Shown here: positions 3,621 to 4,977 of the stretch, one piece after another | Layout of the letters: each line of letters starts with the position of its first letter | Numbering within the stretch: the stretch's first letter is position 1 | DNA from: Plasmodiophora brassicae | Lineage: Eukaryota | Direction: 5' to 3' | Assembly: GCA_036867785.1 (NCBI GenBank) | Contig: CP145427.1 | Coordinates: forward strand, 310,001 to 374,000 | Length of the DNA stretch: 64,000 nucleotides | The notes under the pieces: model-generated | Seen by the model: the letters and a program-made list of their open reading frames with translations, nothing else | Databases searched by the model: none | Told to the model about the DNA's origin: nothing | Position numbers and translations under genes: made by a program

Positions 3621-4136
3621 TTACTGCCCCTTGACGTCGATAAAGGAGTCTTCCTGCGGCGTCAGTGTACCGGCGCAGTGGTTGCATCGCGACGCCATGC
3701 GGTCGACCTCCTGGATACAGTGTGTGCATTTCGCCTTGCCCTTGACGTGGAACATGCGGTTGTACGCCTTGATGATCCAGAACAGGACCAGGGCGACAAT
3801 CAGGAACTCGATGATGGCGTTCGTCAGCGTCCCAAGGTCAAAGTACGTTGCACCAGCATTCTTGGCCGACTTCATCGTGGAATACGTCTGCCCCTGGCAG
3901 TTGAACGGCCACCAATGGTTCAGCTCGATATTCTTATCATCATGCTGCTGGCACTTCACGACGTAGAACCAGTTGTTGAGCTGAACGGGAACCAGGATGG
4001 ACGCCACAGGGCTAAACACGCCTTCGACGAGCGACGCCACTACATGCTGGAACGCGGCGCCCATCACGATACCGACGGCCAGCTCGACGACATTGCCGCG
4101 CTTCAGGAACTTCTTGAACTCGGCGGTCCACGACAT
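3621..4136 (-). CDS. mscL: Large-conductance mechanosensitive channel MscL-like protein with C-terminal CxxC...CxxC, intronless
   Basis: EFKKFLKRGNVVELAVGIVMGAAFQHVVASLV is the MscL N-terminal/TM1 signature; TM2 is GTLTNAIIEFLIVALVLFWIIK; tail CTHC-x10-CNHC. First ATG at 4136. Confidence 0.92.
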   Translation of the reverse strand: MSWTAEFKKFLKRGNVVELAVGIVMGAAFQHVVASLVEGVFSPVASILVPVQLNNWFYVVKCQQHDDKNIELNHWWPFNCQGQTYSTMKSAKNAGATYFDLGTLTNAIIEFLIVALVLFWIIKAYNRMFHVKGKAKCTHCIQEVDRMASRCNHCAGTLTPQEDSFIDVKGQ

Positions 4137-4443
4137 GGCGTTGTCTTGGTTGGGCACGGGGCGATTCGAAGCAGTCAACTATTAGAAGGACGACGTTAGG
4201 AGCCAAACCACGATATTACACTGAGGCAACCACCTCTACCAGCCCCGGAAGGCCACCAGATCACACTACCAGATAAATCCCCGGATCATTCCGGAGATTG
4301 GTTGACCCCTGCCGCCGACCCAGAACCGGGCCGTCGATTCCAGGCAACTGTGAATATGTGAAGCGCGTATCTTGTTGTGCAAAAGGGCACGTTGGATGCA
4401 AATTGGGCTGTTTATCGTATGTTCTACAACAGGCTCCACGAGC

Positions 4444-4977
4444 TTATACGGTGTCCTTGACGTCGGCGCCGGTTGTCGGGTCAGCGTCATCAGGGACGAT
4501 GGCCGACGTGCAGTGATGGCACCTGGACGCCATGGGGTCCACCGTCTGCATGCAGAACATGCAGTGCTTGTCTTTCTGGTTCTCGATGTGGAACATGCGC
4601 ATGTACATCCGAATGATCCAGAACAGGACAAGCGCGACGACCAGGAAGTCCACACACGCCAGGATGAACTCTCCGAGGTTGAAGTACGTCGCGCCGTTCA
4701 ACTGCGCGATCTGAATGGTGTCGTAATCTGCATCGGCTCCCTTGCAGTTGAAGGGGAGGTACGGGTTCAGGCCGTTGTCTTTCGTCGCTTTGCATTTGAC
4801 GACGAAGAACAGGTTGGAGAGGTCGACCGGGACGAGCAGCGTCACAATCGGGGCGAATACGCCGTCAACAAGACTGCTGACGATACGCTGGAATGCCGCA
4901 CCGATGACGACACCGACGGCCAGCTCGACGACATTCCCGCGGTTGATGAACGCCTTGAAGTCTTTCAGCCACGTCAT
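4444..4977 (-). CDS. mscL: Second MscL-like paralog, intronless
   Basis: DFKAFINRGNVVELAVGVVIGAAFQRIVSSLVDG; TM2 GEFILACVDFLVVALVLFWII; tail CMFC-x10-CHHC. Confidence 0.92.
   Translation of the reverse strand: MTWLKDFKAFINRGNVVELAVGVVIGAAFQRIVSSLVDGVFAPIVTLLVPVDLSNLFFVVKCKATKDNGLNPYLPFNCKGADADYDTIQIAQLNGATYFNLGEFILACVDFLVVALVLFWIIRMYMRMFHIENQKDKHCMFCMQTVDPMASRCHHCTSAIVPDDADPTTGADVKDTV

What the first reader, a model, noticed from the sequence alone, without database searches (positions are those of the whole stretch)
3621..4977. Tandem intronless bacterial-type MscL channels with a zinc-ribbon tail in a eukaryote
Seen: two diverged MscL paralogs with the F..F..RGNVVELAVG motif, no introns in an intron-rich locus, no evident targeting peptide, an extended loop with a conserved Cys pair (VKC...FNC), and a C-terminal CxxC-x10-CxxC. 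Established: MscL is mainly prokaryotic with patchy eukaryotic occurrence, and some bacterial MscLs have such Cys tails. Inference: horizontal acquisition followed by duplication. They may form hetero-oligomeric osmotic release valves, for example in spore or zoospore stages.
Basis: partly seen in the sequence, partly recalled or inferred. Interest (0 to 1): 0.7.

Follow-up and report, generated by a model that had tools for sequence, protein, structure and literature searches.

The report
Tandem fungal-type MscL channel genes
Two neighbouring intron-free genes of a protist, probably the clubroot parasite, encode pressure-release channels of the bacterial MscL family; their nearest named relatives are early-diverging fungi rather than bacteria, so they are ordinary members of a little-studied eukaryotic branch of a known family.

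Summary
Window 3621-4136(-) and 4444-4977(-) encode two MscL proteins (171 and 177 aa). Both match Pfam PF01741 (E 9e-28 and 8e-29) and are 53% identical to each other. Each has a loop Cys pair and a C-terminal CxxC-x10-CxxC. They sit in a eukaryotic, intron-bearing locus, and spliced RNA-type contigs cover both genes without any splice in the sense direction.

The zinc-ribbon tail is common in bacterial MscLs (67 of 80 named loci), but the loop Cys pair is not (0 of 74). That pair marks a eukaryote-type branch. Of 30 members I looked up, 15 carry an organism name: 13 early-diverging fungi (mostly chytrids), one tardigrade, and a third, unlinked Plasmodiophora brassicae paralog already annotated as MscL.

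In a 56-row ML tree the sampled bacteria separate from this branch at 99/92, and the window pair lies on the eukaryote side. An AU test cannot say whether the pair is nested among fungi or lies at the base of the branch (p 0.485). Direct bacterial acquisition is therefore unlikely, and the route remains open: transfer from a fungus or old inheritance.

The likely function is a tension-gated osmotic valve; this is untested. The scan held no look-alike on other DNA. Interest is modest.

The parts
3621..4136 (-). MscL copy 1 coding sequence (171 aa from the ATG at 4136, plus stop; the TTG-started ORF reaches 4178)
   Evidence: ORF; PF01741 E 9.2e-28; translation and upstream in-frame stop; run X9 contig 3592-4212 covers it without a gap
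4444..4977 (-). MscL copy 2 coding sequence (177 aa plus stop) = P0001
   Evidence: ORF; PF01741 E 7.9e-29; contigs 4397-5343 (X10), 4478-5172 (X9) and 4409-5961 (X7) cover it unspliced; AF2 model with mean pLDDT 82.3
3897..3953 (-). Copy 1 loop Cys pair C62...C80 (CQQHDDKNIELNHWWPFNC), predicted to lie on the outer or lumenal side
   Evidence: Translation; the Cys column is shared with the eukaryote-type branch and absent from named bacteria
4744..4794 (-). Copy 2 loop Cys pair C62...C78 (CKATKDNGLNPYLPFNC)
   Evidence: Translation; alignment
3675..3728 (-). Copy 1 C-terminal zinc ribbon CTHC-x10-CNHC
   Evidence: Translation; the four Cys are invariant in alignments A1 and A3
4510..4563 (-). 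Copy 2 C-terminal zinc ribbon CMFC-x10-CHHC
   Evidence: Translation; pLDDT 93-96 for residues 141-160; Foldseek places the tail on RanBP2/NZF zinc fingers at rmsd 0.6-1.0 over 23-26 residues, with weak E-values
4137..4443 (.). Spacer between the two genes (5' leader of copy 1, intergenic DNA, 3' end of copy 2)
   Evidence: Sequence; 4179-4443 has GC 0.53
3574..4812 (+). Antisense spliced RNA across both genes: plus-strand GT..AG introns at 3574-3645 and 4759-4812, on a contig that continues through the 5964-6013 intron into the RCC1-repeat gene
   Evidence: Run X1 contig of 2766 letters laid at 3645-4756, 4811-5961 and 6012-6500, with joints GT..AG on the + strand; intron ends read

Best explanation
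These are two real, transcribed, intronless genes for MscL-family mechanosensitive channels in a eukaryote. Earlier scan notes name it Plasmodiophora brassicae, the clubroot parasite, and a named third paralog fits that.

They belong to a eukaryote-type branch of the zinc-ribbon MscL subfamily. That branch is found mainly in early-diverging fungi, chiefly chytrids. It carries two derived features: a longer outer loop with a Cys pair, and the C-terminal Cys4 zinc ribbon inherited from bacterial zinc-ribbon MscLs in place of the helical bundle of E. coli-type MscL.

Proposed mechanism, inferred from homology and not shown. The proteins assemble into MscL-like oligomers. The N-terminal amphipathic helix (F7, F10) and TM1 (L19, G22, V/I23, G26) form the tension-gated hydrophobic gate. 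The outer loop, probably stapled by a C62-C78/80 disulfide made in the secretory pathway, sets loop stiffness and so the gating threshold. The cytoplasmic zinc ribbon replaces the bundle below the pore. The channels would then open on hypo-osmotic swelling and dump solutes, which would be useful to wall-less zoospores or germinating resting spores in soil water.

Origin. The gene did not come straight from bacteria into this lineage. It came through, or is shared with, the eukaryote-type branch, and then duplicated to at least three paralogs, two of them in tandem. I favour transfer from a zoosporic fungus over ancient vertical descent, but the data do not decide between them.
For: Family. PF01741 at 97.5 and 100.9 bits. 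phmmer to solved E. coli-type MscL gives E 5e-12, and residues 1-54 align without a gap up to residue 49 (one gap near its end), with R13 G14 N15, L19, G22, V23, G26, F29, F7 and F10 conserved. The AF2 model has mean pLDDT 82.3 and shows S1 2-12, TM1 15-48, a loop with short strands, TM2 101-129 and a confident tail. The top Foldseek chain is the archaeal MscL 4y7k.

Host genes, not contamination. P0001 was seen on 4 contigs, the longest 746,515 bases. Twenty of 24 listed runs, from 9 studies, hold the stretch or a part of it. One X7 contig runs from 4409 through the spliced 5964-6013 intron of the neighbouring RCC1-repeat gene. GC is 0.57 and GC3 is 0.82-0.83, within the range of nine neighbouring ORFs (GC3 0.51-0.83).

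Transcription and absence of introns. X9 holds a 621-letter contig at 3592-4212, which is copy 1 with short flanks. X10 holds 4397-5343 and X9 holds 4478-5172 for copy 2. All have 0 other letters.

Eukaryote-type branch. The full-library search gave 10,330 hits at E<=0.001. Of the 149 listed hits other than the query, 141 carry the Cys4 tail. Of 30 looked up, 15 are named: 13 fungi, 1 tardigrade and 1 P. brassicae paralog; none of the 15 is a bacterium. One search adds Rhizophlyctis, Batrachochytrium (two species) and Entophlyctis. A Cys at the C62 column plus a second loop Cys occurs in 48 of 89 eukaryote-type rows against 0 of 74 named bacterial loci. The two Cys co-occur: 48 rows have both, 34 neither, 6 the second only, 1 the first only.

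Trees. In the careful tree of 56 rows the bacteria form one side at UFBoot 99 / SH-aLRT 92, and in 98% of 200 bootstrap trees. A further starred branch (98/88) places the window pair with chytrids, Allomyces, Calcarisporiella and the tardigrade. The 127-row quick tree agrees, with supports 79 and 93.

Duplication. The window pair forms a clade at 100/97. The third paralog P0134 is CEP01355.1 / PBRA_001961.
Against: No functional datum exists: conductance, oligomer state, disulfide, zinc binding and membrane location are all inferred.

The AU test does not reject a tree in which all three Plasmodiophora proteins lie outside the other 31 eukaryote-type rows (delta lnL 0.83, p 0.485). Nesting inside fungi is therefore not established, and the 98/88 branch may overstate it. 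The careful tree's bootstrap had not fully settled (correlation 0.983).

The alignment is short (173 columns), and many rows, including P0134 and both window proteins, are long branches. The three Plasmodiophora proteins group together only weakly: 73, and not at all.

I picked the 56 rows after seeing earlier trees.

Unlike most fungal members, the window proteins have no N-terminal extension (3 residues against 20-260) and no N-x-S/T site in the loop, whereas 54 of 89 branch rows have one.

Identity to the best bacterial hits (up to 42%) equals identity to the best fungal hits (42%).

Contigs cannot show strand, and one RNA over the genes is demonstrably antisense, so sense expression is inferred from contig boundaries only.

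The loop around the Cys pair is modelled with only moderate confidence (pLDDT 62-72 for residues 61-80).
Confidence: 0.75

Rival explanations
1. Transfer from a zoosporic (chytrid-like) fungus into the plasmodiophorid lineage, followed by duplication. This is the route I favour within the best explanation, listed here so that it can be scored separately.
For: The named nearest relatives are chytrids. By tree path the nearest rows to all three Plasmodiophora proteins are chytrid proteins (Zopfochytrium, Kappamyces, Borealophlyctis, Phlyctochytrium). Rooted on bacteria, the Zoopagomycota and Mortierella rows branch first, and the window pair lies in the starred 30-row group with the chytrids (98/88). 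The distribution outside fungi is patchy: one tardigrade and this protist among the 15 named. No other rhizarian was named among the hits.
Against: The AU test does not reject the Plasmodiophora proteins lying outside all other branch members (p 0.485). There is no starred sister relation to any particular fungus. GC3 is fully host-like, so any transfer is old. The N-terminal extension typical of fungal members is missing. Unnamed Logan and ENA rows, such as P0127, which pairs with P0134 at 87/72, could be other protists.
Confidence: 0.45
2. Old vertical inheritance: a eukaryote-type MscL acquired once, early in eukaryote history, and since lost from most lineages.
For: The branch spans four fungal phyla, an animal and a rhizarian. 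A basal position for the Plasmodiophora proteins is not rejected. Composition is fully ameliorated. There are three diverged paralogs (31-53% identical).
Against: It requires very many independent losses. None of the 15 named relatives comes from plants, alveolates, stramenopiles, amoebozoans or Dikarya. A 2013 survey found no MscL in the pathogenic protozoa it examined (PMC3681921; passages read).
Confidence: 0.2
3. One reading: a bacterial zinc-ribbon MscL was taken up directly by this lineage and then duplicated. On this view the likeness to fungal proteins is parallel or comes from a similar donor.
For: The proteins have bacterial length and no N-terminal extension. The Cys4 tail is common in bacteria: 67 of 80 loci across many phyla. 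Identity to the best bacterial hits is as high as to fungal ones, at 42%. The genes lack introns. The AU test allows a position on the branch between bacteria and the eukaryote-type group. The ESM Atlas returned only bacterial clusters, but it searches only clusters of 50 or more members.
Against: Sampled bacteria form one side of a 99/92 branch that excludes the window pair. The loop Cys pair sits at the same alignment column as in the fungal proteins and occurs in 0 of 74 named bacterial loci. The loop is 55 residues long, against 21-43 in the bacterial loci printed. No compositional anomaly is seen.
Confidence: 0.12
4. Assembly chimera or bacterial contamination within a eukaryotic contig.
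For: Intronless genes of a bacterial-type family in an intron-bearing locus.
Against: RNA-type contigs from four runs of four studies match with 0 other letters, and one joins copy 2 to the spliced RCC1-repeat gene. Twenty runs from 9 studies hold the stretch or a part of it. The protein occurs on 4 contigs, the longest 746 kb. A spliced antisense RNA with eukaryotic GT..AG introns crosses both genes. GC3 is host-like.
Confidence: 0.02

Closest known systems
E. coli / M. tuberculosis MscL (solved: 2oar, 3hzq, 6ctd, 9tiu, 28oa; archaeal 4y7k/4y7j)
   Same: Pfam PF01741. Near-identical N-terminal helix and TM1 (F7, F10, R13-G14-N15, L19, G22, V23, G26, F29). Two-TM hairpin with an outer loop.
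   Different: The loop is about 55 residues instead of about 25-40 and carries a Cys pair. The C-terminal helical bundle is absent (the Pfam match stops at profile position 102-103 of 123) and is replaced by a Cys4 zinc ribbon. No solved MscL matched aligned to the query's tail.
Bacterial zinc-ribbon MscLs (e.g. loci L008 Fictibacillus phosphorivorans, L028/L046 Bdellovibrio, many Chloroflexota, Gemmatimonadota and Clostridia MAGs)
   Same: Same core plus the same CxxC-x10-CxxC tail, often written CPxC...RCPxC. Similar length, no N-terminal extension, 34-43% identity over the best segment.
   Different: No loop insertion and no loop Cys pair (0 of 74). They lie on the other side of the 99/92 branch. 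I found no paper describing this tail in MscL: one irrelevant hit for 'large-conductance mechanosensitive channel' plus 'zinc ribbon' (listing only).
Chytrid and other early-diverging fungal MscL-like proteins (e.g. Borealophlyctis KAJ3271924.1, Geranomyces KAJ3184236.1, Batrachochytrium dendrobatidis BATDEDRAFT_34461, Allomyces macrogynus KNE71364.1)
   Same: Same branch; a Cys directly after the conserved L-K/R of the first loop strand plus a second loop Cys; a Cys4 tail; 32-42% identity across residues 5-165.
   Different: Fungal proteins carry a 20-260 residue low-complexity N-terminal extension and often have N-x-S/T sites in the loop. The window proteins have neither. The Allomyces, Mortierella and Tieghemiomyces members lack the Cys pair.
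Third Plasmodiophora brassicae MscL (P0134 = CEP01355.1, PBRA_001961, UniProt A0A0G4J1A8, annotated 'Large-conductance mechanosensitive channel')
   Same: Same architecture: 184 aa, no long extension, 55-residue loop with a Cys pair, Cys4 tail.
   Different: Only 31-32% identical to copy 2 and located on another contig. It does not group firmly with the window pair (support 73; apart).

Membership tests
MscL (Pfam PF01741, large-conductance mechanosensitive channel) | Match to the family profile above the curated cut-off | tested here: met
   97.5 and 100.9 bits against 27.4; profile positions 2/3 to 102/103 of 123
MscL (Pfam PF01741, large-conductance mechanosensitive channel) | N-terminal amphipathic helix with two Phe, and TM1 with the hydrophobic gate (L19, V23 in E. 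coli numbering) and the Gly face (G22, G26) | tested here: met
   Residue-by-residue alignment to solved E. coli-type MscL. F7, F10, G14, A20, G26 and F29 are invariant in A1. Copy 1 has I23 in place of V23. The roles of these residues are recalled from the literature, not taken from a call.
MscL (Pfam PF01741, large-conductance mechanosensitive channel) | Two transmembrane helices joined by an outer loop, with both ends on the cytoplasmic side | tested here: met
   AF2 model: H15-48 and H101-129 with a loop between them, mean pLDDT 82.3. The best Foldseek chain is archaeal MscL 4y7k, though only at E 0.12. The sidedness is inferred from the family.
MscL (Pfam PF01741, large-conductance mechanosensitive channel) | C-terminal cytoplasmic helix that forms a bundle | tested here: not met
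   The profile match ends before it. The model shows no helix after residue 129, only short strands around the four Cys. By recall this part is not needed for gating in E. coli, so I do not treat it as excluding membership.
MscL (Pfam PF01741, large-conductance mechanosensitive channel) | Homo-oligomeric (pentameric) assembly and tension-gated large conductance | not testable with these tools
   Needs biochemistry and patch clamp
Zinc-ribbon-tailed MscL subfamily (bacteria and eukaryotes) | Four Cys as CxxC-x10-CxxC about 10 residues after TM2 | tested here: met
   Read from the DNA. Invariant in A1 and A3. Present in 141 of 149 listed full-library hits and in 67 of 80 bacterial loci.
Zinc-ribbon-tailed MscL subfamily (bacteria and eukaryotes) | Tail recognised as a zinc ribbon by profile or by fold | tested here: inconclusive
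   Pfam on the tails alone gives only sub-threshold hits (DZR_2 E 0.02-0.04, Zn_ribbon_SprT E 0.016). Foldseek gives RanBP2/NZF fingers at rmsd 0.6-1.0 over 23-26 residues but with E 0.6-6. Some bacterial relatives carry a precomputed PF13248.
Eukaryote-type (fungal-type) MscL branch | Falls on the eukaryote side of the bacteria/eukaryote-type split | tested here: met
   99/92 in the careful 56-row tree, and 98% of 200 bootstrap trees; 79 and 93 in the 127-row quick tree. Nesting among fungi is not established (AU p 0.485).
Eukaryote-type (fungal-type) MscL branch | Loop Cys pair, the first Cys directly after the conserved L-K/R of the first loop strand | tested here: met
   C62 with C78/C80; 48 of 89 branch rows against 0 of 74 named bacterial loci
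Eukaryote-type (fungal-type) MscL branch | Low-complexity N-terminal cytoplasmic extension | tested here: not met
   Three residues precede the core. In-frame stops lie upstream, and RNA-type contigs are unspliced there. A few other branch rows also lack it (P0127, P0131, P0144).

The most novel reading that the evidence does not exclude
A eukaryote-specific redesign of MscL, with an outer loop stapled by a disulfide and a cytoplasmic zinc ribbon in place of the helical bundle, has spread between unrelated eukaryotes that face sudden rehydration or live as wall-less swimmers in fresh water: chytrid zoospores, a tardigrade and plasmodiophorid zoospores. On this reading it serves as their emergency osmotic valve. 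The clubroot parasite would have taken it from a fungus and expanded it to three paralogs, possibly regulated by the spliced antisense RNA that crosses the tandem pair.
Probability: 0.3. Interest if true: 0.55.

Novelty: new member of a known kind. Interest (0 to 1): 0.35.

Why it matters
MscL is a textbook bacterial emergency valve, and eukaryotic members have hardly been studied. Eight text searches turned up no paper on a fungal, chytrid, tardigrade or Plasmodiophora MscL, or on the zinc-ribbon tail (I saw listings and abstract openings only, plus passages of five papers, one of which held no MscL passage).

If these channels work, they give a simple and testable handle on how wall-less zoospores and germinating resting spores of a major Brassica pathogen survive in soil water. 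They also offer a natural variant for asking what the outer loop and the C-terminal domain contribute to MscL gating.

The finding also corrects a tempting story: the genes look bacterial, but their kin are eukaryotic. At least one paralog is already annotated as MscL in public databases, so the gain is in context rather than discovery.

Tried and rejected
- Own genome search: no genome is held for this window, so I could not locate the third paralog or look for further copies.
- The look-up of sequencing runs: no RNA holder listed. The four laid runs nevertheless carry splice joints. Parts of the stretch without cover in single runs (for example 4213-4477 in X9) are not used as evidence. Depths are not used to rank expression.
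- Complex prediction, four copies of copy 2 with four Zn: no verdict, score 0.09 against a mark of 0.42. It is not evidence either way.
- AU test on the 127-row set: unfinished after 862 s. I dropped it and repeated the test on 56 rows.
- Alignment A1 was too diverse for the search for related loci. A2, with 6 rows, was used instead.
- Foldseek against the PDB: no match at E<=0.001.
- Pfam on the tails alone: nothing above cut-off.
- ESM Atlas: only bacterial MscL clusters, but it searches only clusters of 50 or more members.
- Rfam on 2400-5400: no match.
- The 28 loose letters at 4478 in run X9 are not in the window and remain unexplained; the contig may be chimeric.
- The search of earlier findings by sequence: nothing.
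- Pivetti et al. 2003 (PMC150521) is not held. My memory that it lists a Neurospora MscL is unverified, and no Dikarya protein was among the 15 named relatives.
- The word-indexed search missed all fungal relatives, so its picture of '42% to metagenome bacteria only' was misleading until the full-library search.
- Hetero-oligomers of the two copies: considered, but no available test would separate hetero- from homo-oligomers, so no claim is made.
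Full report
**What is there.** On the minus strand lie two ORFs, 3621-4178 (185 aa from a TTG) and 4444-4977 (177 aa from an ATG). Both match Pfam MscL PF01741 far above its cut-off: 97.5 and 100.9 bits against 27.4, E 9e-28 and 8e-29, covering profile positions 2/3 to 102/103 of 123. They are 53% identical over 166 residues.

Copy 1 most likely starts at the ATG at 4136, giving 171 aa beginning MSWTAEF. A TAG lies in frame directly upstream of the TTG, and the ATG puts the two proteins in register. 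Each protein has a loop Cys pair (C62/C80 and C62/C78) and a tail CxxC-x10-CxxC, both re-read from the DNA.

**The locus is eukaryotic and the genes belong to it.** The neighbours are an RCC1-repeat protein (5987-7951), a DENN+ArfGAP protein, UBA and SPRY proteins, ankyrin proteins, and an acetyl-CoA carboxylase split over several ORFs. Earlier notes of this scan call the genome Plasmodiophora brassicae. I did not verify that directly, but a third, unlinked MscL of the same architecture is named P. brassicae.

The protein of copy 2 has been seen on 4 contigs, the longest 746,515 bases. Twenty of 24 listed runs, from 9 studies, hold the stretch or a part of it.

I laid contigs of four runs on 2500-6500. 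They carry splice joints (2602^2661 on the minus strand; 5961^6012 on the plus strand), so they derive from RNA. They match with 0 other letters across the genes. One X7 contig runs from 4409 through the spliced intron into the RCC1-repeat gene.

GC is 0.57 and GC3 is 0.82-0.83. That lies within the range of nine neighbouring ORFs, whose GC3 is 0.51-0.83. Contamination or a chimera is effectively excluded, and nothing suggests a recent arrival.

**Introns, ends and an antisense RNA.** X9 holds a 621-letter contig at 3592-4212, which is copy 1 with short flanks. X10 holds 4397-5343 and X9 holds 4478-5172 for copy 2. None of them is spliced. This fits two separate intronless mRNAs without N-terminal extensions.

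Contigs cannot show strand, however. In X1 a 2766-letter contig joins 3645-4756, 4811-5961 and 6012-6500 through GT..AG introns on the plus strand. These introns are 4759-4812 and 5964-6013; a third, at 3574-3645, is shown by another X1 record. So a spliced antisense RNA crosses both MscL genes and continues into the RCC1-repeat gene. Sense expression is therefore inferred from contig boundaries, not shown.

**Who the relatives are.** The word-indexed search found nothing closer than 42% apart from the paralog. Its hits were short proteins, many with the same Cys4 tail.

The full-library search changed the picture. It gave 10,330 hits at E<=0.001. The best were proteins of 200-280 aa that align as one stretch over residues 5-165 behind an N-terminal extension. 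Of the 149 listed hits other than the query, 141 carry the Cys4 tail.

I looked up 30 of them. Fifteen carry an organism name:
- 13 fungi: the chytrids Borealophlyctis, Geranomyces, Kappamyces, Phlyctochytrium (two proteins), Clydaea, a Lobulomycetales MAG, Zopfochytrium and Globomyces, plus Allomyces, Tieghemiomyces, Calcarisporiella and Mortierella;
- 1 tardigrade, Hypsibius exemplaris;
- 1 further P. brassicae protein, CEP01355.1 / PBRA_001961, annotated 'Large-conductance mechanosensitive channel'.

The other 15 are unnamed metagenome or Logan sequences. None of the 15 named proteins is bacterial. A profile search added Rhizophlyctis, Batrachochytrium dendrobatidis, B. salamandrivorans and Entophlyctis.

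**The bacterial side.** A scan of one genome per prokaryotic species returned 80 loci from many phyla, including Chloroflexota, Gemmatimonadota, Myxococcota, Bdellovibrionota, Clostridia, Planctomycetota and Acetobacteraceae. Best-segment identity was 30-43%. Sixty-seven of the 80 carry the Cys4 tail.

**The loop Cys pair is the informative character.** I aligned 252 rows; 6 of the 80 bacterial loci were dropped for lengths outside 120-200 aa. None of the 74 remaining bacterial loci has two loop Cys.

At the alignment column of C62, directly after the conserved L-K/R that ends the first loop strand, 49 of 89 eukaryote-type rows have Cys, and 48 of those have a second Cys within the next 24 reference positions. 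The figure for named bacteria is 0 of 74. The two Cys co-occur: 48 rows have both, 34 neither, 6 the second only and 1 the first only. That is what a disulfide pair would give.

The window proteins and the third P. brassicae paralog share this character. They differ from most fungal members in two ways. They have no N-terminal extension, and they have no N-x-S/T site in the loop, whereas 54 of 89 branch rows have one.

**Trees.**
- FastTree on 252 rows put the window pair in a 96-row group that contained none of the 74 named bacterial loci.
- A quick IQ-TREE run (LG+C20+F+G4, PMSF) on 127 rows separated 38 bacterial rows from 89 eukaryote-type rows, with SH-aLRT 79 (93 without one row).
- A careful run on 56 rows separated the bacteria at UFBoot 99 / SH-aLRT 92, and in 98% of 200 bootstrap trees. 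The 56 rows were 34 eukaryote-type and 22 bacterial, which I chose after seeing the earlier trees. A second starred branch (98/88) placed the window pair with chytrids, Allomyces, Calcarisporiella and the tardigrade, apart from the Tieghemiomyces and Mortierella groups. The bootstrap had not fully settled (correlation 0.983).

The window pair is a firm clade (100/97). The third paralog does not join it firmly: 73, and apart.

Against over-reading these trees, an AU test does not reject a tree in which all three Plasmodiophora proteins lie outside the other 31 eukaryote-type rows (delta lnL 0.83, p 0.485). The alignment is short and many branches are long.

My conclusion is that the genes belong with the eukaryote-type branch and not among the sampled bacteria. 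Whether they are nested in fungi or sit at the base of that branch is open.

**Structure and likely mechanism.** The first 54 residues align to solved E. coli-type MscL with a single gap near the end (E 5e-12). Conserved positions include F7, F10, R13-G14-N15, L19, G22, V23, G26 and F29; copy 1 has I23.

An AF2 model built on 93 sequences has mean pLDDT 82.3. It shows an N-terminal helix 2-12, TM1 15-48, a loop with short strands and a small helix, TM2 101-129, and no C-terminal helix. The tail instead forms short strands around the four Cys, at pLDDT 93-96.

Foldseek ranks the archaeal MscL 4y7k first, though only at E 0.12. It places the tail on RanBP2/NZF-type zinc fingers at rmsd 0.6-1.0, with weak E-values. 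Pfam does not call the tail above threshold.

From this and from established knowledge of MscL (recalled, not taken from a call), I infer the following:
- The proteins form MscL-like oligomers.
- A hydrophobic TM1 gate opens under membrane tension.
- The outer loop is stapled by a disulfide and tunes the gating threshold.
- A cytoplasmic zinc ribbon stands where the helical bundle is in E. coli.

None of these steps is shown here.

A role as an emergency valve for wall-less zoospores or germinating resting spores is plausible. It also fits the kinds of organisms that carry the branch: zoosporic fungi and a desiccation-tolerant animal. But it is speculation.

**Origin.** The branch as a whole descends from bacterial zinc-ribbon MscLs. 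For the window genes I rank the routes as follows:
- transfer from a zoosporic fungus, about 0.45;
- old vertical inheritance with many losses, about 0.2;
- direct uptake from bacteria, about 0.12.

After arrival the gene duplicated to at least three paralogs, two of them in tandem.

**What is known.** In eight text searches I found no paper on a fungal, chytrid, tardigrade or Plasmodiophora MscL, or on a zinc-ribbon tail in MscL (listings and abstract openings only). [quoted passage not shown] Passages of PMC9367656, PMC7935092 and PMC5796728 added nothing on eukaryotic MscL, PMC2726227 held no MscL passage in its main text, and PMC11092101 held MscL only in its reference list. Supplements were not examined.

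Public databases already annotate the third P. brassicae paralog and several fungal members as MscL.

**Verdict.** This is a real and correctly recognised gene pair. It is a new member of a known family, sitting in an uncharacterised eukaryotic branch. The bacterial-HGT story is probably wrong in its simple form. Interest is modest at 0.35.

Noticed in passing
window 3574-3645, 4759-4812, 5964-6013 (+): A spliced plus-strand RNA (three GT..AG introns; two begin GTACGG) runs antisense across both MscL genes and on into the RCC1-repeat gene. It was seen as one 2766-letter contig in run X1 only. It may be a long 5' leader isoform of the RCC1-repeat gene or a natural antisense transcript.
   Followed up: partly
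window 3012-3574: A short stretch is covered by separate contigs in three runs (3064-3574 in X1, 3014-3493 in X7, 3012-3471 in X10). It has no Pfam-bearing ORF of note and no Rfam match. It may be the first exon of the antisense RNA above, or a small gene of its own.
   Followed up: partly
P0197 (Hypsibius exemplaris OQV16426.1); P0281, P0282 (unnamed): A tardigrade carries a zinc-ribbon MscL on a 373-kb contig. Two unnamed Logan proteins share its tail motif (TDWPCPKCKE...), so a small animal group of MscLs may exist.
   Followed up: no
P0174 (1414 aa), P0150 (471 aa, Phlyctochytrium bullatum), P0155, P0225 (394 aa, Mortierella): Some branch members carry the MscL core at the end of a much longer protein (for example residues 1196-1345 of 1414). 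These could be fusions or gene-model mergers.
   Followed up: no
P0127 (162 aa, Logan, unnamed): An unnamed protein without an N-terminal extension shares the Cys pair, the TM2 end (LRMYMRI) and a tail much like copy 1 (CTYCIQSV..RCQHCGG). It pairs with the third Plasmodiophora paralog at 87/72. It may come from a related protist.
   Followed up: no
window 4478 (run X9 contig): One contig covering copy 2 carries 28 letters at its end that occur nowhere in the window. It may be a chimeric contig or an unknown join.
   Followed up: partly
window 24959-29086 (-): A single 1375-aa ORF combines an ArfGAP domain (260-369) with uDENN-DENN-dDENN (425-883).
   Followed up: no
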